The notes beneath the pieces were generated by a model. It searched no databases and had not been told where the DNA came from. It worked only from the letters and a program-made list of their open reading frames with translations. From contig CAZMZT010000001.1 in assembly GCA_964571085.1 (NCBI GenBank), positions 18,719 through 82,718 on the forward strand: a DNA stretch of 64,000 nt. The letters are read 5' to 3'. The stretch is from an uncultured Candidatus Saccharibacteria bacterium. Its GTDB lineage: Bacteria > Patescibacteriota > Minisyncoccia > Phycocordibacterales > UBA9973. This document shows positions 35,401 through 50,873 of the stretch, piece by piece (position 1 is the first letter of the stretch; each line of letters opens with the position of its first letter). The position numbers were made by a program, and so were the translations under genes.

Positions 35401-35461
35401 AAAGCGAATGTTTGCTTTCTTAGAAAATTTTGGCTTTAATAGTATTAAAAATTATATATAG
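26489..35461 (+). CDS. Giant (2990 aa) secreted protein with autotransporter-associated beta-strand repeats (PATR), a putative adhesin. It uses a GTG start.
   Basis: A signal peptide is present. The N-terminal 'IRTWTGTASGSWSNPSNWGGTAPVTGDDLVFPG' is the classic PATR lead-in. It has dozens of 'TLTLSG.N.YTG.TTI..GTL.LG' repeats. No C-terminal beta-barrel, LPXTG or TM was seen. Confidence 0.8.
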   Translation: MKKFFVNSIKLFAIIFIVGFLCFGFKPSNADAAIRTWTGTASGSWSNPSNWGGTAPVTGDDLVFPGGASNLSNTNDLIENTIINSITLSGSGYTLSGNSIILGPGLAGITDSASSGGNTIALNIRLGATRDIIVTNTAETLTISGTIAGVGGINKEGTGKIVLSGGNKFGGILKINVGVVNAQSNTALGTIAAGTEVVGGAALELQGNIDISYEALALRGYGVSNTGALRNISGTNTYRGLITLSSAGGTEIASDSGTLTITGGTTGNAPLVFDGSGNMVFSTAPIAGSGAITKNGSGTVTYNFPNTNTGLLTINAGTILYGVDNAILTSAITITGGTLDVATYSDMVGTVTLGTLDLASGTITGSTGILSSAAFTLYNGTISAIIAGDGGALTKSTTGTVVITRPNQYTGATTISAGILEIQDSTSLGLIDGITTVAAGATLQINGDGLSIPEYITFSGTGHLYTGAIRNRTGDNTLTGLLTLGAAAMIESDVSTTLTIDSKGLSATTLGLTVGGAGNTTFTSTAPIYGTSATLTKNDTGVLTIESFSNFTGATNLLRGEVVLGSYGAIPRSTITIGSGGELTLDNTSTTILDRVSDTAALTMNGGSLNFIGNPSSLASETIGALTIASGHNTVTVTPGAGGPTTMTFASLSRTAGATVLFRGTKLGSSPGPNISTIMFTTTPAVLGAGGAAGTTTTSVIKGAFGDNSLSGTGSDMVVHNLGNTNGLRLLNGAGFSGEYAFTLATNANVKLNADTVASTASINSLILDGFSITNPGSAQTITLSSGSLAGNILMNSATSIAGANTTLGITTNHLDILTTASATISAVIGTAVAGSVAISGTGSVTASTANLYTGTTFINNATLFAGATNILSSGGVTVVGGTYDLGNFSDTVGAVTLQNGTITSGSGTLSGTSYSLREGTVSAILGGGAAAVTRVATSAAADSVVTLTRDNTYTGTTTITSGILRLGATGGGTNTPLGTTGGGTLIASGGALDLNGFTLGTAEAITSLAGTGFGASGSSNMGAIMNSSASPVSYSGALTLTAAARINADAGALTISGNASGNFALTFAGFSNVTYSGVRSGTSTIVKVGVNTLTLSNGSSSYTGLTTISEGTVKVGAASVGGTNSPLGTTGAATTVALGSRLDLNGFNLGIAEPLTLNGVGYGLGDFASGALMNSSGTSVTYTGLITLGSASTIKADSGNISLTAAGTISGNTFGLTIGGEGTGTLSSIIGTTSGTVTKIGSGTWTLSGQSTFTGATSVNLGTLKLGVSGGATNSPLGTTGAGTTVYTGAALDFNGFTMSTAEALAINGRGINDGGAFIGSSGTFSGAITQGTDSRIVNASGTLTLSAAVGGAFALYIGGAGNITTSAVFAASALSITKQGAGTMTVTGANLYTGITRVDAGTFAYAATTTLVGTNLIMNGGTFNNGANADTIGTVTLIGGVITNSAALTAATSYTLESGTISGIIAGAIPVIKNTNNTVTLTGVNTISSSTTINAGTLTISGSGSATATTITVNLGGTLTLDNSTTAVASRLGDALALTMNGGNFNFIGNSAAASSETTGALTLSTGHNVVTVTPGAGGSTTMTFASLARTAGATVLFRGTSLGSNAASNVSTLVFTATPTLTGAGGASGSATVSVIKGAYGDSSLSGTGSDMVTYQGGVGLRLLNGAGFANEYSGDFQTANANVKLTADRPAVATNTNSLILNGFSVTNPGGAVTIPMASASLAGNILINSANNIAGANTTLGITTFELDILATANSTISAIIGTATTGSVVLSGTGNVTLSAANPYTSTTFINGATLTAGASNVLSSGGVTMKGGLYNLNGNSDTIGALTLTAGSVSTGAGTLTLGGTVTTIANANFTSLITGNLGLGAARTFDIGDGLMDNDAIITAVISGAFAPTKSTGAGVLMFSGDNTYSGLTTISAGTLRLGAAGGVTNTPLGTTVAGTTVSGASSALDLNGFTLGTTEALTLSGALATGALQNTSSTSVNYSGLVTLGAASTIIANYGDINITNTGNITGNTFGLTIGGAGNGTLASNLNTTTGTLTKNGLGLWTISGGASTFTGLTTISAGTLKLGSAGSGSNTPLGTNAGGITITSGAVFDVNGFTLATAEPIGSLNGTGLASIGAFINSSNSSVSYSGAITLGTASRIVNHGTGTMTISGNISGNFALTIVAVGNFTQATNSVRSGSSTIIKEGSGTLILGGQNSFTGAVTVSTGKLQLGANGGVTNTPLGTIAGGVIVSAGAVLDLSTFTAGGASTWEPLTLAGSGILNGGALISNSSTGSTFATVAQTTTRIVNNGAGTLTFTGAVTGASALWIGGTGNTTISGALNTAGILLTKYGAGSLTLSSAVNINTSLVRINEGTLVYGVADALSTPPVTIAGGTLNLNGFNETNIGLITMIDGSIVNTGGAGTLVSTATATVEKGTISAVIASTVSTLLTKNSAGRFIMSGNNTFTSTAITFNAGYIKLQHSNALGAAGTALASTISAGATLELENGITIPSTKTITANGTGMINTGAIRNVSGTNSIGANLTLGSTNVRVNSDSGALTIPTVSGNTFNLIAGGAGDTAITGAISTTSGNLTKDGAGTLTLSGVNTFSRATNIISGTVVANSTSALGDASSTNTLIFNGGTLQASGDITSISSRAVTLNSGGGTIDTNGNAVSIAGTVGSIGGLTKTGAGTLIITGVTTIGGDLTISTGTFVAPTSLTISGDLDNSGTFTHSNGTVTIVPTSPTLTTNILGSSDTTFYNFTNTTAGSTLQFREGNTYTFANVFTLTGADGNPISINSDTPDSQWLMTLSGSASMSYIKVKDSGCVGGNNVGASSTIIDYGNNGSCWQFIAVIKSGGGVVEASAPPDGDVGGGGGGGSGGGGATNAIATAVVSSNVVQSVTINAGGSGYTSVPTVLFCGGGGTGALGTAVLTSGAVSSVTVDNGGSGYSSAPTVVFNSNCPTTGGGGGGGGGGDIGFIYKIKRMFAFLENFGFNSIKNYI
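28241..29225 (+). repeat. Copy 1 of a roughly 320-aa intragenic duplication within the PATR gene.
   Basis: It is protein-level collinear with 31052..32045 ('...ALTMNGG.(L/F)NFIGN....SET.GALT...GHN.VTVTPGAGG.TTMTFASL.RTAGATVLFRGT...'). Nucleotide identity is roughly 75%. Confidence 0.7.
31052..32045 (+). repeat. Copy 2 of the intragenic duplication.
   Basis: See copy 1. Confidence 0.7.
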
Positions 35462-35530: not shown

Positions 35531-36031
35531 ATGGAAGATAAAAACACAATTAAAATAAACGCTCTTCCTTATGTAGAGGAGCCTCCTACCGTTCCTGGGC
35601 TAAAACCTAAAAAGAGATCAATGTCCAAGCAAAAACTTATAAATAGGGTGTTGTTGGTAGTCTTGTTGATAGCGATAGGTTTCGGGGGGTATTTTTACTA
35701 TAGACTCAGCTCTCTACAAAAGAACCCTACAGCAGAAGCTTCCAAGGAAGCAAAAGACCTGCTCGGCAGGGTAGCAAAGATCTACCTTATCCCAACCGGA
35801 GAAGAGCCAACAGTAGCAACCGTCTCTGACCCAGAAAAGTTGAAAGACCAATCGTTCTTCTCTGGAGCACAAAAAGGAGACAAAGTACTTATATTTTCAC
35901 AGTCAGGCAAAGCCGTGCTATACAGACCTAGTATAAACAAGATCATTGAGGTTGCTCCTATAAATAATAAAAATGATAAACCAACAACACAAGAAAAATC
36001 AACAGGTCCTCTTCAAGACAAAACATTTTAA
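35531..36031 (+). CDS. Single-pass membrane protein (N-in) with a roughly 100-aa extracytoplasmic domain. It is the first gene of the surface cluster.
   Basis: A TM helix 'VLLVVLLIAIGFGGYFYY' follows a basic stretch. Confidence 0.5.
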   Translation: MEDKNTIKINALPYVEEPPTVPGLKPKKRSMSKQKLINRVLLVVLLIAIGFGGYFYYRLSSLQKNPTAEASKEAKDLLGRVAKIYLIPTGEEPTVATVSDPEKLKDQSFFSGAQKGDKVLIFSQSGKAVLYRPSINKIIEVAPINNKNDKPTTQEKSTGPLQDKTF

Positions 36032-37061
36032 TTGGATATTGGTTACAGTATTTGCCCTGTCTTCTTTTTATCCAATTTTCAACATATATGCGGCTCTTTC
36101 TTGTACTGTAACTACACAGGCATCATGTAATGGAAGTGGATATACCACACTTCTACGCATGTCTGGATCTACTAATGCTCACTCTGAACTCCCGAGTCAG
36201 TCCAATGTCAACTATGACGACGATGTAGTGTGTTGTTCTGGTGTTTCAACTATTGGTAACTCATGTAGTGCTTCTAACAAGCAAATATTTGCACGCATCT
36301 CAGGTTCGACAAATGGAACTATACAAGAGACAAGTGTAAACACTTACGGCACCAATGTCTGTTTGTCTGACTCTGTAGAGAACGACACTATCACTGTCGG
36401 TTATCAGAACTCCAACTGCTCTGGTTATGACACTACACTCGCTTCTATTTCTAGTTCAGACAATGCCCATGTAGGGGATGGCAGTGCATACACAAGGAAA
36501 ATCTGTGCGACGATAGTACAGCCAACTATAACTTTCGACCTCGACACTGCATCTGACTTTACAAATGGTGAGTCGACCGCTCCATACTTAGTTGAGCTTG
36601 GGGCTCTTTCTACTGGATCTGTAAATAATTCCAATGGGTCTAGCGTACGTATGATAGTAGCCGAAGGAGAAACCAATGCACCGGGTGGAATGGTAGTGAC
36701 TGTATATAATGCAGGTGGTGCTGATGGGCTACGGTCGGCATCGGTACCTACTGACAAGATTCCAAGCACTACAGGAACTATGTCTGCGGGTACAGCTCGA
36801 TACGGACTATGTGTTGCGACATCTGGACTTACAGGATTTTCTAGAGCAACAGGGTACAGTAGCGATTCTTGTTCACTAGGTTCTGGAACCAATGGTGTAA
36901 GGGCACTCTCATCAACTCCTACAGACATATTGAACTCAGGAGGTGGAACGCTGTCCGGTGGACATGCTGAAATAGTGGTCAATGCGACAATAAGCCCTAC
37001 AACTCCTTCTCATAATGACTATGAAGACTCACTTACATTCATTGCCACAGGGACTTTCTAG
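35973..37061 (+). CDS. Secreted beta-rich Ser/Thr/Gly-rich protein, paralog A. It is a candidate pilus/fibre subunit.
   Basis: A signal peptide is present. The C-terminal ~170 aa align with the 37182 product and both end in 'NDYxDxITFIATxTF'. The 5' end overlaps the upstream gene by 59 nt, so the true start may be downstream. Confidence 0.6.
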   Translation: MINQQHKKNQQVLFKTKHFNWILVTVFALSSFYPIFNIYAALSCTVTTQASCNGSGYTTLLRMSGSTNAHSELPSQSNVNYDDDVVCCSGVSTIGNSCSASNKQIFARISGSTNGTIQETSVNTYGTNVCLSDSVENDTITVGYQNSNCSGYDTTLASISSSDNAHVGDGSAYTRKICATIVQPTITFDLDTASDFTNGESTAPYLVELGALSTGSVNNSNGSSVRMIVAEGETNAPGGMVVTVYNAGGADGLRSASVPTDKIPSTTGTMSAGTARYGLCVATSGLTGFSRATGYSSDSCSLGSGTNGVRALSSTPTDILNSGGGTLSGGHAEIVVNATISPTTPSHNDYEDSLTFIATGTF

Positions 37062-37065
37062 TATC

Positions 37066-37079
37066 AAGTTATCCACAAT
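37066..37079. promoter_or_regulatory. Second copy of the 14-mer AAGTTATCCACAAT (DnaA-box consensus).
   Basis: It is an exact match to 15528..15541, 5 nt after a stop codon. Confidence 0.4.
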
Positions 37080-37148
37080 GCTTATTTACGTATCTTTTAA
37101 GGATATTTTATGGTAAAATAAGGCTATAAATCTTATTATAAAAGTTTA

Positions 37149-37168
37149 TTAATTATTAATTATTAATT
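37149..37168. repeat. Tandem TTAATTA x3 microsatellite in an AT-rich intergenic region.
   Basis: The sequence reads 'TTAATTATTAATTATTAATT'. Confidence 0.6.
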
Positions 37169-37181
37169 CAGTAGTTATATT

Positions 37182-38408
37182 ATGAAAATATTGAAATTCA
37201 AGTCATCAGTGCTGTCAAAGGTTGCAAGTTCTATTACTATGGTCGCCCTAATCCTTGTAACTTCAGGTGGCCCACAGATCGCAGAAGCTTTGGCTATCAC
37301 ATCATCAAAAGACACAGCTACTCGTCTACAGATCAGTACTACAGCTGACCATACTATAGTATTCACACTCCCGACTGGTATTGACTTTGATTCTGCTGGT
37401 AACACTGACTTCCTCCGTGTTGATTTTCCTGGTACTTTTACTGCTGGAGGCACTTGGGCTGCTGGAGACTTCACTTTCGATGATGGTGCTGCAAGAACTA
37501 TAAATGCTGTTGAACAAGGTGCTGGTGATGTAGACTGTACAGTCGCTGCCGGTGTAAACAACGTATGTATTTCTGTTGACACAACCAATAATATTTTCAC
37601 TATTAAACCATCAGCTACATATACAGCATCAGCAACAGGAGCAACTGTTACATTTACGATCGATGGAACAACTGCAGACGGTACACTCACAAATCCTTCT
37701 TCTGTAGCAGCTACAAACATAGATTTTCAACACTGTGACAACGTGGCTGCTTGTGACTCAGCGTTTGCTTCAACTCACTCAAGTCAGATAGCTTACGCTA
37801 TTATCGATGACGACACTGTAGCCATCACAGCAACGGTAGGCTCTTCAATTACTTTTGACCTAGACACAGCAGGAAGTAATGACAGTACATGCGATACAGA
37901 CGAGACAGCAGCACCATACGCTATAGCCCTCGGAGCAATATCAACGGCAGATACTAGAATATCTGGTGCTACAGATGCTGTAAACCTTATCTGTGTAGAC
38001 CTCGATACTAATGCTGGTGGTGGAGCAGTAGTCACAGTTTCAAACGCGAACGGAGCAAGTGGTCTGGTCTCTACTTCTAGTCCAACAAATGACATAGATA
38101 CTACCGATAACACTGCTGTTACTGCTGGTACTGAAAACTATGGTCTATGTATTGTTACAACTACAGCAGGTACTGGTACACTCGATGATGAAGGAGGATA
38201 TGATGGCGACACTTGTGCTGCCAATAGTGCGACTAATGTCGTACAAGCCATGTCTGCAGTCACTCCTGAGACTATCTTTGATACAAATGGTGCCCCTATA
38301 GCAGGCGGACGTGGAACAATAGCTGTAAATGCTTCAATTGCCACAGGTCAAGCGGCTCTCAATGACTATACTGACGCTATTACATTTATAGCGACTGCTA
38401 CATTCTAA
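37182..38408 (+). CDS. Secreted beta-rich protein, paralog B of the 35973 product.
   Basis: A signal peptide ending 'AEALA' is present. Shared blocks include 'ITFDLDTA...APY...LGA(L/I)ST', 'GG.VVTV.NA.GA.GL' and 'YGLC' plus the C-terminal 'ITFIATATF'. Confidence 0.6.
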   Translation: MKILKFKSSVLSKVASSITMVALILVTSGGPQIAEALAITSSKDTATRLQISTTADHTIVFTLPTGIDFDSAGNTDFLRVDFPGTFTAGGTWAAGDFTFDDGAARTINAVEQGAGDVDCTVAAGVNNVCISVDTTNNIFTIKPSATYTASATGATVTFTIDGTTADGTLTNPSSVAATNIDFQHCDNVAACDSAFASTHSSQIAYAIIDDDTVAITATVGSSITFDLDTAGSNDSTCDTDETAAPYAIALGAISTADTRISGATDAVNLICVDLDTNAGGGAVVTVSNANGASGLVSTSSPTNDIDTTDNTAVTAGTENYGLCIVTTTAGTGTLDDEGGYDGDTCAANSATNVVQAMSAVTPETIFDTNGAPIAGGRGTIAVNASIATGQAALNDYTDAITFIATATF

Positions 38409-38429
38409 TAGTAAGAAGACTTCTAAGGG

Positions 38430-39455
38430 ATGAATAACTACCAGAACAACAGAGGACGATTCGCACTCTTGATTTTAATCATTGCTGTTTTCTTTGTTTC
38501 GAAAAATGCTCATGCTCTCAGCTTGTCTCCTGTACGTGTAGAAGTCAGTGGTAACCCAGGCGAGACAGTCACCAGGGAGATGGTCATCACCAATGAGAGT
38601 GAAGGTAGCTCAATATACTACTCTTCATATGCCAACTTCGAAGCCTCAGGTGATACCGGTAGTCCAGCATTCGTAGAGCCAAAAGATGATATAGGTACAT
38701 GGCTCTCTACAACTGCATCTATAGACTTGAAAGCCAATGAGTCAAAGACCGTTACATTCAAAATAGAGATTCCTAAAGATGCAGAACCAGGAGGACACTT
38801 CGGATCAATATTCTGGGGTACAAATCCAAACAATGGCTCAAGCGGGGTGGCTGTAGGTTCAAAGACAGGTATACTCATACTTCTTTCAGTTAATGGTGAT
38901 GTAAAAGAAGCTGGAGGCCTCGTCGACTTTAATACCAAAGACAACAAAATCTTTTACAACACTCTCCCGGTGTCTTTTACTTATAGGTTTCGTAACGATG
39001 GAGGTGACCGTATAAAACCAGTAGGCAAGATAGTAATGCATGATCTGTTTTATATACCAGAAGATAAAATAGATGCAAACCCAGGTGGAGGCAACATACT
39101 TCCATCAAGCACTCGACGCTTCAACGTTGACTGGGTCAAGGATCCACGAGCGAAGGACTATGTAGCACCAAGTGGTGTAGTAGGTAAGTTCTTTGGCCAA
39201 GCAATATACCAGTGGAACAACTACGCCTTTGGCCCATATTTTGCCAAGCTCAACCTGCTGTACAGTACAGATGCTATAAGAGTAAAAGACACAGTTTTCT
39301 TCTTTGTTTTTCCTTGGCAATTATTAATATGCCTTGCCATTATTTTCTTCACTGTATTTTGGGGCGGCAAAAAACTAATTCGACGCTATAACAAGCATAT
39401 TATACAGAAGGCACGTCTTGGCATGAACAAACCAAACGATGCCACTCATGTATAG
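38430..39455 (+). CDS. Secreted Ig/chaperone-like beta-domain protein with a C-terminal TM anchor and basic tail.
   Basis: A signal peptide is present. 'LSLSPVRVEVSGNPGETVTREMVITNESEGS' resembles PapD-like or DUF916-like Ig-fold openings. The C-terminus has a TM 'LLICLAIIFFTVFW' plus 'KKLIRRYNKH'. Confidence 0.5.
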   Translation: MNNYQNNRGRFALLILIIAVFFVSKNAHALSLSPVRVEVSGNPGETVTREMVITNESEGSSIYYSSYANFEASGDTGSPAFVEPKDDIGTWLSTTASIDLKANESKTVTFKIEIPKDAEPGGHFGSIFWGTNPNNGSSGVAVGSKTGILILLSVNGDVKEAGGLVDFNTKDNKIFYNTLPVSFTYRFRNDGGDRIKPVGKIVMHDLFYIPEDKIDANPGGGNILPSSTRRFNVDWVKDPRAKDYVAPSGVVGKFFGQAIYQWNNYAFGPYFAKLNLLYSTDAIRVKDTVFFFVFPWQLLICLAIIFFTVFWGGKKLIRRYNKHIIQKARLGMNKPNDATHV

Positions 39456-40305
39456 AAAATCTCTAACTAAATTCATATTACTCGTCTTGTTCTTTTTTGC
39501 TGTATCGCATACAGTTTACGCTGTGGATGTGGGGGTATCTGCTTCTGTGGGTACCATAACTATTACTCCGACTGATGATGGTGGAGGAGGGATAGACACA
39601 AGTGTTGTATTCTCTGGACTTGCTTATCCTGGCGCCACTGTCCATATATGGAAAGACGGAATTCCTTCACAGGTGGTTATGGCAGATGCAAATGCTCGCT
39701 TTAGTGTTACGCTTTCTGAAACATATAACCCAAGTGTACTGTATACTCTATATGCCATAGATAAGTCTGGGCGTAGATCACTACTTATCAACTATCCTCT
39801 GGTGGTTAAAAACGGCTATGTGACCCAAGTAAGTGGTATCAGATTTGCCCCAACTATCACTACAGATAAAAGTGAGGTAAAATTTGGCGACTATATAACA
39901 GTATCTGGCTACTCTGTACCAAACACATATATAGACGTCGTTATATCAGGATCAGTAAGTTCGACTTACTATGTCCAAAGCAAACCTGACGGAGTTTATC
40001 AGATTACAATACCACTTATAGGTTTTAAAAAGGGTGCATACGATGTATATTCTAATTACCAAAATGATAAGAAGATAAGTAAAGTCATAAAGTTTGTTAT
40101 TGGAGATGTAAATATATTGAGCATCGACCTCACTACAAATATCCCAGGAGATTGTAATGCCGACCAGATTATAAATCTTGTCGATTTCTCTGTGGTTGCC
40201 TTTTGGTATGGGAAGCCAAATCCACCAAAGTGTGTCGACACAAATTCTGACAAAGTCATAAACCTTACCGACTTCTCAATACTCGCATTTTATTGGACTG
40301 GGTAA
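39439..40305 (+). CDS. Secreted protein with two Ig-like repeats and a C-terminal dockerin domain.
   Basis: Two calcium-binding loop repeats, 'DCNADQIINLVD' and 'DTNSDKVINLTD', fit D-x-N-x-D-x-x-x-N-x-x-D. Each is followed by a hydrophobic helix ('FSVVAFWYG' / 'FSILAFYWTG'). Confidence 0.6.
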   Translation: MPLMYRKSLTKFILLVLFFFAVSHTVYAVDVGVSASVGTITITPTDDGGGGIDTSVVFSGLAYPGATVHIWKDGIPSQVVMADANARFSVTLSETYNPSVLYTLYAIDKSGRRSLLINYPLVVKNGYVTQVSGIRFAPTITTDKSEVKFGDYITVSGYSVPNTYIDVVISGSVSSTYYVQSKPDGVYQITIPLIGFKKGAYDVYSNYQNDKKISKVIKFVIGDVNILSIDLTTNIPGDCNADQIINLVDFSVVAFWYGKPNPPKCVDTNSDKVINLTDFSILAFYWTG

Positions 40306-40325
40306 TGTATAATGTTTATATAACT

Positions 40326-41201
40326 ATGAAGATACTTATCTACACTATAGCCATTTTCTTACTAACCTCATCTGTGTCTCATGCAGCTCTGGTGTCTGTA
40401 TCTGCACCAAAGGTTGCTACAGAAGGACAGGATTTTAGTGTTTTGGTTAATCTTAATACAGAAGGCGCATCTGTGAACTCTTTTGATATAAAGTTATCGT
40501 ACCCTGTAGATGTAGTTTCATTCTCTGGCTACAAAGAAGAAGGATCCATCAAGCGCCTATGGCTAACATCACCAGTAGACAAAGGTGGGGAAATACACTT
40601 TAGTGGGATTATACCTGGTGGGGTAGATGGGATGTATGATCCTGATAAAAAAGAACTACAACCAATACCTCTTTTGCATTTATTATTTTCTACAAGAGAC
40701 GTAGGTCAAGGAAGCTTTACTATAAAAGAATCAAGTATTCTTATTAACGATGGTAAAGGTACATCACTAATCCACACTAGAATTGATTCACCTATAAGTG
40801 TATCTAAATCACTAGATTCATCTTATGATAAGAATTCCACTCGCATTAAATCAGCAGACACAGTGCCACCCCTGCCTTTTGTTATAGAATTCATAGAAGC
40901 AGGTCTATTCTCGAGGACACCGTCTATGATTGTCTTTTCTACTACAGACGCAGAATCAGGCGTGAAATCTTATCAACTTCGCGTAGCAGGTGATAATTGG
41001 GAAGATATATCAAGTCCAACACCTATAAGTAAGGGCCTTGTAAAAAGGGACGTAGTAGTTAGGGCGGTAGACTTCGGAGGCAATATACGTGAGTCAAATG
41101 TAGAAATACCTGGTATACTTTCTAATATACAGCTTATAGGGATAGTACTTATAGGTTTTGTTTGTTACTTTGTATTTTTTGTGTTAAAAAGGAAAAGATG
41201 A
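40326..41201 (+). CDS. Membrane-anchored protein with an N-terminal cohesin-like domain.
   Basis: A signal peptide is present. 'ALVSVSAPKVATEGQDFSVLVNLNTEGASVNSFDIKLSYPVDVVSFSG' matches the cohesin pattern V.V.....G..F.V.V.......V...D..L.Y...V. The C-terminus has a TM 'LIGIVLIGFVCYFVFFVL' plus KRKR. Confidence 0.55.
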   Translation: MKILIYTIAIFLLTSSVSHAALVSVSAPKVATEGQDFSVLVNLNTEGASVNSFDIKLSYPVDVVSFSGYKEEGSIKRLWLTSPVDKGGEIHFSGIIPGGVDGMYDPDKKELQPIPLLHLLFSTRDVGQGSFTIKESSILINDGKGTSLIHTRIDSPISVSKSLDSSYDKNSTRIKSADTVPPLPFVIEFIEAGLFSRTPSMIVFSTTDAESGVKSYQLRVAGDNWEDISSPTPISKGLVKRDVVVRAVDFGGNIRESNVEIPGILSNIQLIGIVLIGFVCYFVFFVLKRKR

Positions 41202-42313
41202 AATTCTACATAAAAACAATACTATATAGTTTTTTTATAGTCGTATTGTTTAGCACTACGAGTGTGTTTGCAGCACCTGCATCACTGTCCATAACTAAAC
41301 CATCTGGTAGTGTACAAGAAGGAGATCGGGTCACACTAAGTATTAAAGTAGAGTCTACTGACCAAGCTATCAATGCCATATCTGGAGTTGTATCATTCTC
41401 TGAAGATACTCTAAAGACTATATCTGTAAGTAGGGATAGTAGCATATTAAACATCTGGACCCGGGATCCTAATGTAGGTAGGAATAAGGTCACATTTGAA
41501 GGTGTAATACTCAACCCTGGTTATAGGGGAGCTGGTGGGACACTTTTCAATATTACATTTGAAGCCAAGAAATCTGGTCGAGCTACTGTTTCTTTTACTG
41601 AAGGAGCAATCCTTGCCAATGACGGACTTGGTACTAATGTCATAAGTGGACTTTCATCTATCAATTTTAATATTACTCCAGGTGCTGGGGCTCTAGACTT
41701 GTCTGGGGTGCCTATCGCCCAAACAACACCAAGGAGACTACAAGCATTGCCGGTCATTACTGAGTATTCACAATCAGTTTATTCTAAACAAACTGCTTAT
41801 CTAAGGGGTAGAGGAGAGCCAGGCGCTATGACAAAAATTTCCTTTGAAGATCTATCGCAGAAATCTTTCGGAGAACAATTCTTGGACTTTGTTCAATCAA
41901 AAAAGAAACGCCTTAGTGATGTCCTTGTCCAAAACAATGAAAAAGGTTTATTTGAATATGTCACACCCAACAACCTAATAGCAGGGGTATACAACGCCAC
42001 CCCATTCCTAGTTGAAGATGATACAAACATAGAAAAGCCTGGTCTCGGTGTTCAGCTTTTTGTAAATGACAGCAAGATAGTCAAAGGCTTGATAGTCTTT
42101 ATAAATATACTCCTCCTACTTATACCAATAGTTGGGCTTATAATGCTTATTTACTTTATCCCGTGGTATTCGTCACGCCGTATGCGTATTATGAAGAGAC
42201 GCATGGGTCTCGAAGAAGAGAAGATTATACTCACCGAGCATCATTTGGAGCATGAAGATAAGCTCTTATATAAAGACCCGCTAGAAAACACAAATACTGA
42301 AAAAAGCAGTTAG
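41198..42313 (+). CDS. Second membrane-anchored cohesin-like protein.
   Basis: Its ATG overlaps the upstream stop as ATGA. 'ASLSITKPSGSVQEGDRVTLSIKVESTDQAINAISGVVSFSEDTLKTISV' is cohesin-like. A C-terminal TM and a basic 'SSRRMRIMKRR' stretch are present. Confidence 0.55.
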   Translation: MKFYIKTILYSFFIVVLFSTTSVFAAPASLSITKPSGSVQEGDRVTLSIKVESTDQAINAISGVVSFSEDTLKTISVSRDSSILNIWTRDPNVGRNKVTFEGVILNPGYRGAGGTLFNITFEAKKSGRATVSFTEGAILANDGLGTNVISGLSSINFNITPGAGALDLSGVPIAQTTPRRLQALPVITEYSQSVYSKQTAYLRGRGEPGAMTKISFEDLSQKSFGEQFLDFVQSKKKRLSDVLVQNNEKGLFEYVTPNNLIAGVYNATPFLVEDDTNIEKPGLGVQLFVNDSKIVKGLIVFINILLLLIPIVGLIMLIYFIPWYSSRRMRIMKRRMGLEEEKIILTEHHLEHEDKLLYKDPLENTNTEKSS

Positions 42314-42332: not shown

Positions 42333-43412
42333 ATGAAGCGACCATATATCCTGCTGACCTCTCTATACCTTATTGCCATACTTAGTTTCCCTCTTTTAGG
42401 TAATGCTGAGAGTAAAATACTTAACCTAGAAGAGAATTTGTGGCTCAGATCTCGCAACAACACCATTGTCGTCTATCCTGAAAAGAATTTCCCCCCATAT
42501 TCTTATCAAAACTCTTCAGGAATACCACAGGGTCTGTCCATAGACTATATCGAAGTGATAGCTCAGAAAATAGGAGCAAAGATCCAGTATTTACCTGCTC
42601 GTTCTCGATCTCAAATACTTGATGATGTAAAACAAAGCAGTAAAGGAGATGTGATTACATCTTTAGCTGACACAAAAGATAGGGGAGATATACTGTATTT
42701 CTCAGATACTTATGTCACTACTCCAGCTGTTATTGTTGTAAGAAAAGATTCGAATAAGAACAATCTAACCCTCAACGACCTGACTGGTAAAAAGGTCGCT
42801 ATTGGTGGTCAATATGCAGTTGAGGAATTCGTGAGAACTAATAATCCTAGGATTGTCATTGAGTCCGTCAGCGACAACGAACTTGGTTTACAGCAAGTAG
42901 TTCTAGGCGAGGTGGATGCTGCTATTATGGATATTACATCTCTGTCTTATTACTTATCCAAACAAGTTTTAAATAGTGTTAAGGTTGTTGGTAGCACTGG
43001 TTTTGACTACAAACTCTCGTTTGCTGTACCAAAAGACAAGCAGATACTCCAATCAATCCTCGATAAAGGATTACAACAAATAAGCACTAATGATAGGCAA
43101 ATAATCAAAGATAAATGGGTAGTCGTACCAAACGAAATAAACAAAACTTCATTAATCTCCTCCTATATTTTAGACAATCTAATATCTATAATCTTGTATC
43201 TGATACTTTGTGTCATAATAGTTATCCTCATTATACGACTAAGGAAGAGGAGATTTACATTTAGAAGGCATAGTCATCTAGATGAGGTAAAAGAATTGAA
43301 AGAAGAGATGCTCGAACTGGAAGACACCAGTAAAGGCCTGATAGAAGAGCTAAATAACGTTAAAATCTTGGAGGAAGACATAAAAGAAAAAATAAAGAAG
43401 ATAGAAAATTAG
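42333..43412 (+). CDS. Membrane-anchored SBP_bac_3 (periplasmic-binding-protein type 3) domain protein with a short cytoplasmic coiled-coil tail.
   Basis: A signal peptide, an SBP fold ('LTGKKVAIGGQYAVEEF...EVDAAIMD'), a TM 'IILYLILCVIIVILII' and a tail 'ELKEEMLELEDTSKGLIEELNNVKILEEDIKEKIKKIEN' are present. Confidence 0.65.
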   Translation: MKRPYILLTSLYLIAILSFPLLGNAESKILNLEENLWLRSRNNTIVVYPEKNFPPYSYQNSSGIPQGLSIDYIEVIAQKIGAKIQYLPARSRSQILDDVKQSSKGDVITSLADTKDRGDILYFSDTYVTTPAVIVVRKDSNKNNLTLNDLTGKKVAIGGQYAVEEFVRTNNPRIVIESVSDNELGLQQVVLGEVDAAIMDITSLSYYLSKQVLNSVKVVGSTGFDYKLSFAVPKDKQILQSILDKGLQQISTNDRQIIKDKWVVVPNEINKTSLISSYILDNLISIILYLILCVIIVILIIRLRKRRFTFRRHSHLDEVKELKEEMLELEDTSKGLIEELNNVKILEEDIKEKIKKIEN

Positions 43413-43463
43413 CCAAATCTAGAACTTCCTTTTTGAGGCCACTTTTGTTATTATTAAGGGATA

Positions 43464-44537
43464 ATGAAATCAGCTTTCCTATACGTATTCTTGGCAGTAT
43501 TTGTCATAAGTCCTATATCTACTATATACGCCCAGTCTAGTTTACTTACTAAAGAAGAAAACATATGGCTTAGCTCAAGGAATAACACCATCTCTGTTTT
43601 ACCAGAGAAGAACAACCCACCATTTTCTTTTAATGATTCTTCTTATATAACCCAGGGTATTTTCATTGATTATATTAAACTTGTAGCAGAGAAGTTGGAC
43701 TTAAAGATAGATTATATTACTGCTCGTACAAGATCTGATGTTTTAAAAAGTCTAACATCATCTGAAGGTGATTATGTATCAAGTATAGAAGTTGATAAGG
43801 CCAAGGAACTATCTCTTGATTTTAGCGATCCCTACTCTACATTTCCTGTAGTTATAGCTGTTCGTAAAGATTACTCATCTCATGATGGTATGACTCTCGA
43901 TGAGTTTAACAACAAAAGTGTTGCCGTAATACAAGGCTCTGCTATCAGTTCATATATCAAAAGCAATTACCCACGTGTGATAGTCGAAGAAGTCGTAGAC
44001 AACGAACTTGCCCTACAGAAAGTAGCTCTCGATGAAGTGGATGCTACAGTTATGAATGTTGCGTCTCTGACTCATCTACTGTCTAAGCAATCAATGCGTA
44101 GTATTAAAGTTGCAGGGAGTATAACATTTGATTTAAAGATGGCATTTGCAGTCCCAGAAGGGAAGGCAATACTCAGCTCTATTTTAAACAAAGGATTAAA
44201 CCAAGTAAGCGCGAGAGAGCATCAAGATATCATAGATAAATGGATATTGTTGCCAAATGAGAAGCATACAGCTAATTCATTTTTCTCAGGCATAGCTCAT
44301 CATCCAGGCCTTACTATAGTCATTGTTATTTTAGTAATTATTGTATCTACAGTATTGATATTTATAAGACGAAAAATGCCACACATACATAATCACAATA
44401 AAGGAGTAGGAACAAATATGATCAGTGAGCTAGAGCAAGAGATCATAGAACTTGAGCATACAAGCAAAGGTTTAATAGAGGAACTCAATGAAGTCAAAGC
44501 TTTAGAGCAAGACATCAAAGATAAACTAAAGAATTAA
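43464..44537 (+). CDS. Tandem paralog of the SBP_bac_3 membrane-anchored protein.
   Basis: It shows roughly 45% identity along its whole length to the 42333 product, including the coiled-coil tail 'ELEHTSKGLIEELNEVKALEQDIKDKLKN'. Confidence 0.65.
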   Translation: MKSAFLYVFLAVFVISPISTIYAQSSLLTKEENIWLSSRNNTISVLPEKNNPPFSFNDSSYITQGIFIDYIKLVAEKLDLKIDYITARTRSDVLKSLTSSEGDYVSSIEVDKAKELSLDFSDPYSTFPVVIAVRKDYSSHDGMTLDEFNNKSVAVIQGSAISSYIKSNYPRVIVEEVVDNELALQKVALDEVDATVMNVASLTHLLSKQSMRSIKVAGSITFDLKMAFAVPEGKAILSSILNKGLNQVSAREHQDIIDKWILLPNEKHTANSFFSGIAHHPGLTIVIVILVIIVSTVLIFIRRKMPHIHNHNKGVGTNMISELEQEIIELEHTSKGLIEELNEVKALEQDIKDKLKN

Positions 44538-49899: not shown

Positions 49900-49967
49900 T
49901 AGGCAGTTGGTAGTAAGTTGAGAAACTCTTGCTACTTTCTACATACTTCGTACTACATAATTATATT

Positions 49968-50873
49968 ATGGCAAACAGGCACCTTTCACGTTCAATTGTT
50001 CTTCAAACGCTCTTCGAGTGGGATTTTGCCGCTGAGAAGGACATGACACCTGCGGACATGCTCGACCGCAATATAGAAGAATTTGGACCTGGGCTCGATG
50101 ACGGAACCTTCATGTCAGAGCTACTTCTTGGTATCGTAAAGAAGAAAGCTATTATCGATGAGATCATAGAGAAAGCTGCCCCAGATTGGCCTATAGACAA
50201 GATATCTATAGTCGATCGCAACATCTTGCGTATGGGTCTATATGAGCTCCTATTTGGTGATAGGACCCAAGTCCCACCAAAGGTTGCTATCAATGAATCT
50301 ATCGAGCTTGCTAAGAGTTTTGGTGGAGAGAACTCTAGTAAATTCATCAACGGCGTTCTTGGTGGAGTTTATAAAGAAATAGGCGAGCCAGGTAAAGATG
50401 AAGTTGGTAAAAAGAAAGCAAAGGTTTTCGAGACAGATCCAGCCAAATTCCCAATTGAGAAGAAAGCCGGTGCGGTTATTTACTCTAAAAACGAAGGAGG
50501 AATATATTTTGCCTTTGTTCATGACGTTTTCGGATACTGGACGCTGTCTAAAGGTGGAGTTGAAGAGAACGAAGATGTAGAAACAGGTGCAATTCGTGAA
50601 ATAAAAGAAGAGTTAGGCCTCGATATAAAGATTAAAGAAATGCTAGGCCAAAACGAATATGTGGCTACACACCCTGAGAAAGGGAAAATCCGCAAACAAG
50701 TCACATTCTTCCTTGCTGAAGCACCATATGGCGACCTAGTACTTTATAATAAGTCAGGAGGGCTGGATGATGTAAAATGGTTTCCACTTTCAGAAGTAGC
50801 GGGGCTTAAAATGTATGACAATATGATTCCACTTCTAACAAAAGCTGTGGAGATACTAACGAAAAATGATTAA
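49968..50873 (+). CDS. nusB: NusB antitermination factor fused to a C-terminal Nudix hydrolase domain.
   Basis: The NusB signature 'VPPKVAINESIELAKSFGGENSSKFINGVLGG' is present. A perfect Nudix box 'GGVEENEDVETGAIREIKEELGL' (GX5EX7REUXEEXGU) is present. Confidence 0.8.
   Translation: MANRHLSRSIVLQTLFEWDFAAEKDMTPADMLDRNIEEFGPGLDDGTFMSELLLGIVKKKAIIDEIIEKAAPDWPIDKISIVDRNILRMGLYELLFGDRTQVPPKVAINESIELAKSFGGENSSKFINGVLGGVYKEIGEPGKDEVGKKKAKVFETDPAKFPIEKKAGAVIYSKNEGGIYFAFVHDVFGYWTLSKGGVEENEDVETGAIREIKEELGLDIKIKEMLGQNEYVATHPEKGKIRKQVTFFLAEAPYGDLVLYNKSGGLDDVKWFPLSEVAGLKMYDNMIPLLTKAVEILTKND

What the first reader, a model, noticed from the sequence alone, without database searches (positions are those of the whole stretch)
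42333..44537. Tandem membrane-anchored SBP_bac_3 proteins with cytoplasmic coiled-coil tails but no transporter or kinase partner
Both have a signal peptide, a complete type-3 periplasmic-binding fold, one TM helix and a roughly 40-aa charged coiled-coil ('ELEDTSKGLIEELNNVKILEEDIKEKIKKIEN'). No ABC permease or ATPase and no histidine-kinase domain is adjacent. The SBP fold usually feeds an ABC importer or forms the sensor of BvgS-like kinases. Here it may be a stand-alone receptor signalling via the coiled-coil. It sits at the end of the surface island.
Basis: partly seen in the sequence, partly recalled or inferred. Interest (0 to 1): 0.55.

Follow-up and report, generated by a model that had tools for sequence, protein, structure and literature searches.

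The report
Kinase-less flytrap receptors ending a surface-protein operon
Two neighbouring genes in an ultra-small (Patescibacteria) bacterium encode membrane-anchored "Venus-flytrap" ligand-binding proteins that look like the sensor half of a BvgS-type kinase but carry only a short coiled-coil tail inside the cell, and they are the conserved last genes of an operon for cell-surface proteins rather than parts of a nutrient transporter.

Summary
ORFs 42333-43412 and 43464-44537 each encode a signal peptide, a complete SBP_bac_3 Venus-flytrap (VFT) domain, one TM helix and a ~57-aa cytoplasmic tail with an unbroken 5.5-heptad coiled-coil pattern. No ABC importer or kinase gene lies nearby.

1. 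These proteins are not stand-alone. They are the terminal gene(s) of a conserved co-directional operon (g0/g1-g2-g3-g4-g5-SBP) of secreted and C-terminally anchored Ig-like and cohesin-like surface proteins. The order holds in 33/33 genome loci seeded on the SBP and 29/32 metagenome loci seeded on g5. The gene downstream of the SBP varies.
2. The VFT is sensor-type. Its closest solved relatives are RmcA, BvgS and EvgS, and its closest database relatives are multi-VFT histidine kinases.
3. The paralogs differ. SBP1 keeps the canonical amino-acid-anchoring Arg and Asp; SBP2 has lost both, while the coiled coil stays the best-conserved region between the two.

My best reading is a kinase-less VFT receptor that acts as an accessory sensory or regulatory subunit of a Paceibacteria surface complex, coupling through its TM helix and coiled coil to partner proteins. 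The mechanism is inferred, not shown. I classify it as a new variant of a known kind, of moderate interest.

The parts
42333..43412 (+). SBP1: signal peptide, sensor-type VFT (SBP_bac_3), TM helix and cytoplasmic coiled coil; 359 aa. It keeps the canonical pocket residues R117 and D200.
42420..43118 (+). SBP1 Venus-flytrap domain (aa 30-262). It includes sensor-VFT hallmarks: the N-terminal 'EExxWL' helix, 'VRKD' and the C-terminal 'KW'.
   Evidence: pLDDT above 90; aligned to RmcA 3-233 and BvgS VFT2; Foldseek TM-score 0.92 to 7EJG; invariant W37, L38, R41, R137, D139, K261, W262
43179..43241 (+). SBP1 transmembrane helix (aa ~283-303), followed by a K/R-rich juxtamembrane stretch (aa 304-316).
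   Evidence: Kyte-Doolittle peak of 3.6; KR fractions 0.6-0.86 at residues 305-315; helix 283-312 in the model
43287..43403 (+). SBP1 cytoplasmic coiled coil (aa 319-357, 5.5 heptads). It has conserved polar 'a' positions S333 and E347.
   Evidence: LIVMF occupancy 0.91-1.00 at a/d positions in 117 homologs; E347 is D/E in 97%; single helix 318-358
43464..44537 (+). SBP2: paralog with the same architecture; 357 aa. The pocket anchors are lost (K at position 117, N at position 200, and Y58F). Its VFT is at ~43545-44243, TM at ~44310-44366 and coiled coil at ~44421-44531.
41162..42313 (+). g5: signal peptide, cohesin-like domain, C-terminal TM helix and a conserved ~54-aa cytoplasmic tail ('YFIPWYS..RRMR..LGLEEEKI'). 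The likely true start is the invariant Met 13 (~41198). It is the immediate upstream partner gene, separated from SBP1 by a 19-nt gap.
   Evidence: Cohesin PF00963 at 26.1 bits against a cut-off of 24.1; tail conservation; synteny
40293..41201 (+). g4: signal peptide, beta-rich ectodomain, C-terminal TM helix and ~8-aa tail.
39439..40305 (+). g3: secreted protein with a Big_6 Ig-like domain and a dockerin-like C-terminus; no TM anchor.
   Evidence: Big_6 at 23.3 bits and Dockerin_1 at 20.6 bits, both below the Pfam cut-offs; no C-terminal TM helix in 34/34
38430..39455 (+). g2: signal peptide, Ig-like ectodomain (weak WxLIP_PGBD-like match), C-terminal TM helix and a conserved 32-aa tail.
37182..38408 (+). 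g1: secreted protein with tandem Ig-like beta-sandwiches, adhesin- or pilin-like. It shares its C-terminal ~180-aa domain with g0.
   Evidence: no Pfam match; AF2 pLDDT 90; weak Foldseek matches to MSCRAMM adhesins, Gram-positive pilins and integrin leg domains
35973..37061 (+). g0: secreted paralog of g1, sharing its C-terminal domain.

Best explanation
SBP1 and SBP2 are kinase-less, single-pass Venus-flytrap receptors. Each resembles the sensor half of a BvgS/EvgS/RmcA-type transmembrane sensor (VFT, TM helix, post-membrane coiled coil) with no enzymatic output domain.

They are dedicated accessory subunits of a conserved Paceibacteria (Parcubacteria) cell-surface protein operon. That operon encodes two secreted Ig-like adhesin- or fibre-like proteins (g0, g1), a secreted Ig/dockerin-like protein (g3), and three type-I membrane-anchored proteins (g2, g4 and the cohesin-like g5).

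Proposed mechanism (inferred, not shown):
1. The extracellular VFT of SBP1 binds a small amino-group-bearing ligand, most likely an amino acid or a derivative.
2. Domain closure is relayed through the TM helix to the cytoplasmic coiled coil.
3. The coiled coil forms a homodimer, or pairs with SBP2 where that copy is present, and/or contacts the conserved cytoplasmic tails of g5 and g2. This would alter assembly, conformation or anchoring of the surface complex.

SBP2, found only in the window's sub-clade, has lost the ligand-anchoring residues. It probably serves as a non-canonical or ligand-free partner.
For: Shown:
- Architecture is confirmed and conserved at ~360 aa in more than 200 homologs, all from Patescibacteria.
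- Operon linkage. In 33/33 evaluable genome loci seeded on the SBP, the order g2-g3-g4-g5-SBP is kept on one strand. In 29/32 evaluable metagenome loci seeded independently on g5, an SBP follows directly.
- Stop and start codons overlap or lie 19-50 nt apart, and no + strand terminator lies between g1 and SBP2.
- The downstream gene varies: gyrB, a YchF-type GTPase, or unknown genes.
- The VFT is sensor-type: RmcA 6e-37 and TM-score 0.92, BvgS 2e-36, EvgS 9e-28. Top relatives among 1.84 billion representatives are multi-VFT HisKA/HATPase_c kinases.
- Sensor hallmarks ('EExxWL', 'VRKD', 'KW') are invariant.
- Pocket. D200 (equivalent to GlnBP D157) is present in 116/117 family members and 47/47 single-copy members. 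Position 117 (GlnBP R75) is R or K in about 80-88%.
- The coiled coil is the best-conserved region between the paralogs (51-66% identity, against 44-50% for the VFT and 21-33% for the linker and TM).
- Four operon proteins share the C-terminal TM-anchor topology, and the g5 and g2 tails are strongly conserved.
- Precedent. An unrelated output-less 4xVFT-TM-coiled-coil protein (P0336) is encoded directly upstream of a VFT-PAS-HisKA kinase and three response regulators. So such stubs do occur as partners of operon-encoded membrane proteins.

From the literature:
- In BvgS-family kinases the coiled coil directly after the TM helix processes the periplasmic input (PMC5829827).
- RmcA's VFT is reported as an L-arginine sensor (titles and abstracts).
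Against: - No physical interaction, ligand or output has been shown.
- The 20-residue segment between the VFT and the TM helix is poorly conserved and modelled with low confidence (pLDDT below 50 at residues 266-273). That argues against rigid piston-type coupling and is equally compatible with a passive tether.
- Position 117 is not strictly basic: 10 of 47 single-copy members carry T, Q, S, P, N or L.
- The side-chain-facing positions 158-161 vary, so a single conserved ligand is unlikely.
- A wider family of related clusters (class B) works without any SBP gene (0/14), and two class-A lineages lack it. The SBP is therefore dispensable for the core function.
- Profile comparison found no homology between the tail and kinase linkers or the class-B g5 tail.
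Confidence: 0.5

Rival explanations
1. The proteins are membrane-tethered substrate-binding proteins of an unlinked amino-acid ABC importer. In a monoderm CPR cell without lipoprotein anchoring, the C-terminal TM helix simply keeps the binding protein at the membrane, and the tail is incidental.
For: - The SBP_bac_3 fold is complete, and D200 plus R/K117 are mostly retained.
- There is no lipobox in 0/117 members, so some other anchor is needed.
- C-terminal TM anchoring is the general mode of attachment in this operon (g2, g4, g5).
- The VFT-TM linker is flexible.
- Automated annotations call these proteins 'ABC-type amino acid transport substrate-binding protein'.
Against: - No permease or ATPase lies in the window or within 10 kb either side in 36 loci.
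- Linkage to a surface-protein operon is invariant.
- The sequence is closer to sensor VFTs than to transporter SBPs.
- A conserved 39-residue heptad tail, with 97%-conserved E347, is unnecessary for a tether.
- SBP2 has lost both ligand anchors yet is kept intact in at least 5 genomes.
- Parcubacteria are reported to have a dearth of transporters (PMC4508563).
- One Patescibacteria genome lists a transcribed K02030 SBP without K02029 or K02028 (PMC10936435 Table S4). I did not verify that this protein belongs to the same family.
Confidence: 0.2
2. The proteins are structural or assembly subunits with no small-molecule sensing. The VFT would act as a protein- or cell-wall-binding module, as the non-catalytic SBP_bac_3 domain does in MltF. 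It would help to anchor, chaperone or space the g0/g1/g3 surface proteins, and the coiled coil would only oligomerise it.
For: - The operon position and shared type-I topology with g2, g4 and g5 fit a structural role.
- NCBIfam also matches the MltF N-terminal domain (E 1.8e-10).
- Specificity positions 158-161 vary, and position 117 is not always basic.
- SBP2 lacks the canonical anchors.
Against: - D200 is essentially invariant, and R137 and D139 are invariant in SBP1-type members. That suggests a maintained pocket.
- The closest relatives are ligand-sensing VFTs.
- Class-B clusters assemble without any SBP, which suits a regulatory add-on better than a core structural part.
Confidence: 0.22
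3. The genes are decayed remnants of a BvgS-like sensor kinase gene that lost its kinase half, i.e. non-functional relics.
For: The nearest relatives are multi-VFT histidine kinases, and the protein ends where their linker to the DHp domain would begin.
Against: - Length is conserved at 355-370 aa in more than 200 homologs spanning 45-99% identity.
- The tail is highly conserved.
- The operon position is conserved.
- Duplicates are intact in several genomes.
All of this indicates purifying selection on the truncated form.
Confidence: 0.02

Closest known systems
BvgS/EvgS family of Venus-flytrap sensor histidine kinases (more than 11,000 members; PMC5829827)
   Same: Both have an extracytoplasmic SBP_bac_3 VFT with the 'EExxWL', 'VRxD' and 'KW' hallmarks. 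In both, a single TM helix directly follows the membrane-proximal VFT, and a heptad coiled coil follows the membrane. These are the best sequence and profile matches.
   Different: There is no DHp (HisKA), HATPase_c, PAS, receiver or HPt domain; the protein ends after 5.5 heptads. It has one VFT instead of two or more. The gene sits in a surface-protein operon rather than next to a response regulator. Homology of the tail to kinase linkers is not demonstrable.
RmcA (P. aeruginosa c-di-GMP phosphodiesterase) periplasmic PBP/VFT domain, PDB 7EJG; CdgH-type VFT-GGDEF sensors
   Same: This is the closest solved structure: TM-score 0.92, rmsd 1.6 A, 26% identity, E 6e-37, aligned from the N-terminal helix to the C-terminal Trp. 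It is a ligand-sensing VFT placed ahead of a TM helix.
   Different: RmcA continues into cytoplasmic PAS, GGDEF and EAL domains. Here there is only a coiled coil.
Polar-amino-acid ABC transporter binding proteins (GlnH, HisJ/LAO, ArgBP; TC 3.A.1.3)
   Same: The fold is the same, and equivalents of the alpha-amino-binding Asp (D200, matching GlnBP D157) and the alpha-carboxylate-binding Arg (R/K117, matching R75) are present.
   Different: No cognate permease or ATPase is linked. The protein is TM-anchored with a conserved cytoplasmic tail. Sequence similarity is weaker than to sensor VFTs.
Output-less multi-VFT-TM-coiled-coil proteins encoded next to VFT kinases (e.g. P0336 in locus L044); to my knowledge not a described family
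   Same: The architecture is the same: VFT(s), one TM helix and a ~58-aa charged coiled coil, with no output domain. It is also encoded in an operon with its presumed membrane partner.
   Different: It has four VFTs. Its partner is a canonical VFT-PAS-HisKA kinase with three response regulators, not surface proteins, and it comes from a different lineage.
GABA-B receptor (class C GPCR) heterodimer; functional analogy only, drawn from general knowledge
   Same: Two paralogous VFT subunits are involved, one retaining the ligand pocket and one having lost it. Both carry cytoplasmic coiled coils that could mediate pairing.
   Different: There is no 7-TM domain, no G-protein coupling and no homology beyond the VFT fold. 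Heterodimerisation is untested here.
Cohesin-dockerin and Firmicute WxL/Csc cell-surface complexes (relevant to the operon, not to the SBP itself)
   Same: g5 passes the Pfam cohesin threshold. g3 has a dockerin-like C-terminus. g2 has the CscA-like layout of signal peptide, Ig-like domain and C-terminal TM anchor, with a weak WxLIP_PGBD match.
   Different: The dockerin, Big_6 and WxLIP matches are below the Pfam cut-offs. No WxL domain is detected in g0 or g1. No sortase or LPXTG motif is present. No such system is known to include a VFT receptor.

Membership tests
SBP_bac_3 (PF00497) type-II periplasmic-binding fold | HMM score above the gathering threshold, and a two-lobe alpha/beta fold | tested here: met
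   74.6 and 65.1 bits against a cut-off of 26.4. The AF2 model has pLDDT above 90 and TM-scores of 0.82-0.92 to solved SBPs and VFTs.
ABC importer substrate-binding protein (polar amino acid type) | A cognate BPD_transp_1 permease and ABC ATPase, normally in the same operon | tested here: not met
   None in the 64-kb window, in five Pfam-annotated contexts, or by motif scan within 10 kb either side in 36 loci.
ABC importer substrate-binding protein (polar amino acid type) | A cognate transporter elsewhere in the genome | not testable with these tools
   No whole genome could be loaded. The literature reports few transporters in Parcubacteria.
ABC importer substrate-binding protein (polar amino acid type) | Pocket residues that bind the alpha-amino and alpha-carboxylate groups | tested here: inconclusive
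   SBP1-type members keep D200 in 116/117 and R/K117 in about 80-88%. SBP2 has lost both. The mapping used a GlnBP sequence recalled from memory and aligned.
BvgS/EvgS-type VFT sensor histidine kinase | Periplasmic VFT domain(s) followed directly by a TM helix | tested here: met
BvgS/EvgS-type VFT sensor histidine kinase | Cytoplasmic HisKA/DHp and HATPase_c domains | tested here: not met
   Only 57 residues follow the TM helix, and there is no Pfam or NCBIfam kinase match. The true kinase relatives do carry these domains.
BvgS/EvgS-type VFT sensor histidine kinase | A dimeric coiled-coil linker after the TM helix | tested here: inconclusive
   The heptad pattern is present and conserved. The oligomeric state is not testable here, and homology to kinase linkers was not detected.
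VFT-GGDEF/EAL sensors (RmcA, CdgH) | Cytoplasmic GGDEF and/or EAL domain | tested here: not met
   No such domain is present, although the VFT is the best structural match to RmcA.
MltF-like SBP_bac_3 plus lytic transglycosylase | C-terminal SLT catalytic domain | tested here: not met
   Only the N-terminal SBP-like part of the MltF model matches (positions 45-263 of 483).
Bacterial lipoprotein SBP | A lipobox Cys at the signal-peptide cleavage site | tested here: not met
   0/117 members have a lipobox.
Cohesin-dockerin surface assembly (operon partners g5 and g3) | Cohesin and dockerin domains above the Pfam thresholds | tested here: inconclusive
   The g5 cohesin match is 26.1 bits against a cut-off of 24.1 (met). 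The g3 dockerin match is 20.6 bits against 22.9 (not met).

The most novel reading that the evidence does not exclude
SBP1 and SBP2 form a GABA-B-like heteromeric receptor. One subunit is ligand-binding and the other has lost its pocket, and they pair through cytoplasmic coiled coils. With no kinase, cyclase or other enzymatic output, the receptor would relay an extracellular (possibly host-derived) amino-acid signal directly to the cytoplasmic tails of co-encoded surface-complex proteins. It would thereby gate assembly or adhesion of a host-attachment structure in ultra-small episymbiotic bacteria. That would be a previously undescribed, enzyme-free mode of bacterial transmembrane signalling.
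Probability: 0.12. Interest if true: 0.8.

Novelty: new variant of a known kind. Interest (0 to 1): 0.55.

Why it matters
Patescibacteria (CPR) make up a large share of bacterial diversity. They have tiny genomes with few transporters and few recognisable signalling systems, and most are thought to live attached to host cells. How they sense hosts or nutrients is largely unknown.

This family is a conserved sensor-type ligand-binding receptor without any enzymatic output, and its gene sits inside an operon for surface adhesin-like proteins. It is therefore a concrete, testable candidate for coupling environmental or host sensing to the cell-surface apparatus.

The finding also corrects a systematic annotation error: these proteins are labelled 'ABC-type amino acid transport substrate-binding protein'. 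In addition, it shows that the sensor half of BvgS-type kinases can persist as an independent, selected module.

Tried and rejected
1. Split-tail idea. Class-B clusters lack the SBP but have a g5-like protein with a longer (81-91 aa) two-helix cytoplasmic tail. I tested whether the SBP tail is the detached distal half of that tail. hhalign gave probability 1.3% against 0.3% for the reversed control, and the g5 tail gave 0.8% against 0.2%. Rejected.
2. Tail homologous to the TM-DHp linker of VFT kinases. hmmsearch envelopes ran into the tail, but profile-profile alignment with P0288 covered only residues 32-275. Homology is not shown; the correspondence is positional only.
3. Identifying the operon through g1. 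AF2 gave a confident two-domain beta-sandwich, but Foldseek against the PDB returned only generic Ig-like adhesin, pilin and integrin-leg matches with whole-chain TM-scores below 0.25. Not diagnostic.
4. WxL/Csc system assignment. The only support is a sub-threshold WxLIP_PGBD match in g2 (E 1.8e-4, 21.9 bits against 27.3) and a similar layout. No WxL domain is present. Kept as a loose analogy only.
5. Promoter and terminator scan. Counts were not above the shuffled expectation. The only useful result is that no + strand terminator lies inside the operon.
6. Literature. I found no paper describing this operon or a kinase-less VFT in CPR. The K02030 entry in PMC10936435 Table S4 could not be tied to this family.
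7. Genome-wide search for an ABC permease.
8. Pseudogene or relic hypothesis. Rejected on the conservation evidence.
Full report
**1. Observation**

Both match Pfam SBP_bac_3 far above threshold, at 74.6 and 65.1 bits against 26.4. They are 47% identical to each other across the whole length, including the tail.

The N-termini look like Sec signal peptides. Across the family, 113/117 members have K/R in the n-region, 95/117 have an AXA-like site ahead of the first helix, and none has a lipobox.

A single strong hydrophobic segment lies at about residues 283-303 and is followed by a K/R-rich stretch, which puts the C-terminus in the cytoplasm.

The tail shows an unbroken 3-4-3-4 pattern at residues 319, 322, 326, 329, [333], 336, 340, 343, [347], 350, 354 and 357. 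LIVMF occupancy is 0.91-1.00 at the ten hydrophobic positions in 117 homologs, against 0.28 LIVM overall in the tails, and Pro+Gly is only 2%. Two 'a' positions are conserved polar residues, S333 and E347, the latter being D/E in 97%. AlphaFold2 (mean pLDDT 84) models the VFT at above 90, a TM helix at 283-312 and one long helix at 318-358.

The rest of the window is housekeeping genes plus surface proteins. The only ABC gene is an exporter-type fusion at 8038-9780 on the minus strand, and there is no histidine kinase. An independently assembled, 100%-identical contig (L082) carries g5-SBP1-SBP2-gyrB, so the tandem arrangement is real.

**2. Family**

A database search returned 223 homologs, essentially all 355-370 aa long and 45-99% identical. 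Where they are named, they come from Patescibacteria: Paceibacteria/Paceibacterota, Nomurabacteria, the Parcubacteria group and Minisyncoccia. Typical automated labels are 'transporter substrate-binding domain-containing protein' or 'ABC-type amino acid transport substrate-binding protein'. The truncated architecture is therefore under selection and is not a relic.

**3. Genomic context (the main new result)**

Pfam-annotated contexts of five relatives at 51-63% identity all show the SBP gene as the last of a co-directional run of roughly 380, 340, 290 (Big_6), 294 and 373 aa, followed by the SBP at about 360 aa. Junctions are often overlapping or very short. What follows the SBP differs between contexts: gyrB, a YchF-type GTPase, or unrelated hypothetical genes.

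I tested this in two ways.

- I fetched 34 genome loci seeded on the SBP and searched them with BLAST using the window's genes. All 33 evaluable loci keep g2-g3-g4-g5-SBP on one strand, mostly preceded by the paralogs g0 and g1.
- I fetched 80 metagenome loci seeded on g5 instead. Among loci with a full-length g5 ortholog and at least 1.1 kb of downstream DNA, 29 of 32 have an SBP directly downstream, and 6 have two. The exceptions are L068, where a GIY-YIG-like gene sits in that position, and L069/L072.

A more distant 'class B' version of the cluster has a 505-605-aa g5-like protein with cohesin and Big_13 domains. It never has an SBP (0/14).

In the window there is no + strand terminator between g1 and SBP2, and gyrB has its own extended -10-like element. 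So the SBP is a clade-specific accessory gene attached to an older surface-protein cluster. It is not linked to gyrB or to any transporter.

**4. The partner genes**

- g0 and g1 are secreted paralogs with no Pfam match. g1 folds confidently (pLDDT 90) into two Ig-like beta-sandwiches. Its weak structural neighbours are MSCRAMM adhesins, Gram-positive pilins, CfaB/Csu pilins and integrin leg domains.
- g3 is secreted and has Big_6-like and dockerin-like segments, both below threshold.
- g5 passes the cohesin threshold.
- g2, g4, g5 and the SBP all share the layout of signal peptide, ectodomain and C-terminal TM anchor. Their cytoplasmic tails are about 32, 8, 54 and 57 aa long.
- The g5 tail ('YFIPWYSWRRMRVLKKKLGLEEEKIELSEHQLERQDKLL') and the g2 tail are strongly conserved.

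The operon therefore appears to encode a membrane-anchored surface complex of adhesin- or fibre-like proteins. Several of its members expose conserved tails to the cytoplasm.

**5. What kind of SBP domain this is**

A profile of the family finds sensor VFTs first among solved structures: the RmcA periplasmic domain (7EJG, E 6e-37), BvgS (2e-36) and EvgS (9e-28). Natural ABC binding proteins score 1e-17 or weaker. Foldseek agrees, with 7EJG at TM-score 0.92 and rmsd 1.6 A, followed by BvgS.

In an exhaustive profile search of 1.84 billion representatives, the top non-family hits are proteins with 3-8 VFT repeats. Those examined are HisKA/HisKA_2 plus HATPase_c kinases, some with PAS or receiver domains. 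The named ones come from Gammaproteobacteria and Nitrospirota.

The N-terminal 'EExxWL' helix, the 'VRKD' strand end and the C-terminal 'KW' are invariant in the family and are shared with RmcA and BvgS.

In BvgS-family kinases, the coiled coil that directly follows the TM helix is the element that processes periplasmic input (PMC5829827). The tail here occupies that position. However, profile-profile comparison aligns only the VFT, so homology of the tail is not established.

**6. Ligand pocket and paralog asymmetry**

I aligned the family to E. coli GlnBP, using a sequence recalled from memory. The alignment reproduced the published ligand-contact numbering.

- D200 corresponds to GlnBP D157 (alpha-amino group). 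It is present in 116/117 family members and in 47/47 single-copy members.
- Position 117 corresponds to GlnBP R75 (alpha-carboxylate). It is R or K in about 80-88% of members.
- The side-chain-facing positions 158-161 vary.

All SBP2 orthologs (the window, L010, L013, L014 and L048) carry N at 200 and K, E, Q or N at 117, together with Y58F and loss of G223 and Y226. Their SBP1 partners keep all of these residues. A second, independent tandem duplication (L070, L075/76) keeps both residues in both copies.

Between SBP1 and SBP2, the coiled coil is the best-conserved segment at 51-66% identity. The VFT is 44-50% and the linker plus TM is 21-33%. This fits retention of a shared tail interaction, either with each other or with a common partner.

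**7. Precedent for a kinase-less stub**

P0336 has four VFTs, one TM helix and a 58-aa coiled coil, with no output domain. It is encoded immediately upstream of a VFT-VFT-PAS-HisKA kinase and three response regulators. Output-less VFT-TM-coiled-coil proteins therefore exist elsewhere, and there they sit next to an evident membrane partner.

**8. Interpretation**

Shown:
- the architecture;
- the sensor-type affinity of the VFT;
- operon membership;
- the asymmetry between the paralogs;
- the absence of a nearby transporter or kinase.

Inferred:
- SBP1 binds an amino-acid-like ligand;
- the TM helix and coiled coil couple this event to SBP2 and/or to the g5 and g2 tails;
- this coupling modulates the surface complex.

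Against tight mechanical coupling, the 20-residue VFT-TM linker is variable and modelled with low confidence.

Rivals:
- A passive tether for an unlinked ABC importer. This could not be excluded genome-wide. The literature notes few transporters in Parcubacteria. One Patescibacteria genome lists a transcribed polar-amino-acid SBP with no permease or ATPase, though I did not verify that it belongs to this family.
- A purely structural, MltF-like use of the fold.
- A decayed kinase, which the conservation data reject.

**9. Novelty and score**

No publication describing this family or operon was found. It is best classed as a new variant of a known kind: a BvgS/RmcA-type VFT sensor module without an output domain, recruited as a conserved accessory of a CPR surface-protein operon.

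Interest is moderate (0.55). The architecture and context are robust and unexpected for an 'SBP', and they bear on how ultra-small episymbionts sense their surroundings. The mechanism, however, is still inferential.

Noticed in passing
window 35973-42313 (+): This is a conserved six-gene Patescibacteria surface cluster, apparently undescribed. It encodes two secreted Ig-like paralogs ending in '...DY.D.ITFIAT.TF', an Ig/dockerin-like secreted protein, and three C-terminally TM-anchored proteins, one with a cohesin domain.
   Followed up: partly
loci L090-L125 (e.g. L099:7846-9570, L112:7849-9666): A more distant 'class B' version of the cluster has a longer g5-like protein (505-605 aa, cohesin plus Big_13). 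Its cytoplasmic tail is strongly conserved, 81-91 aa long and looks like two helices ('...RKEVREAE..L..AF..L+ED...LT.EE....L...L..AE..I.KEI.DI'). These clusters have no SBP gene.
   Followed up: partly
locus L044:3645-13793: In an unrelated organism, a PAS protein, an output-less 4xVFT-TM-coiled-coil protein (P0336), a VFT-VFT-PAS-HisKA kinase and three single-domain response regulators are encoded in a row. This looks like a co-sensor arrangement.
   Followed up: partly
locus L055:2233-4290: The SBP ORF runs on as a single 685-aa reading frame into a protein with a type-IV-pilin N-terminal methylation motif (N_methyl at residues 360-383). This is either a gene fusion or a lost stop codon in that contig.
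   Followed up: no
locus L068:5532-5852: A small GIY-YIG-like gene ('KFYIGFTNDLRKRFKEHN') occupies the position directly after g5 where the SBP gene normally sits. This may mark loss or replacement of the SBP by a mobile element.
   Followed up: no
window 15611-25333 and 26489-35461 (+): Two giant ORFs of 3240 and 2990 aa lie upstream of the cluster. The second has six PATR (passenger-associated transport) repeats and a Gly-rich C-terminus. The first has no Pfam match at all.
   Followed up: partly
window 53825-55459 (-): A single 544-aa protein fuses a PGA_cap (poly-gamma-glutamate capsule synthesis-like) domain with a VanY D-Ala-D-Ala carboxypeptidase domain.
   Followed up: no
window 49929-50873 (+): This is a NusB-NUDIX fusion protein, conserved in the related genomes (L001, L002).
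   Followed up: no
loci L010-L043 (record titles): Many MAGs that carry this Paceibacteria-type operon are titled 'uncultured Candidatus Saccharibacteria bacterium'. The label looks generic or wrong, because their closest relatives are Paceibacteria, Nomurabacteria and Minisyncoccia.
   Followed up: no
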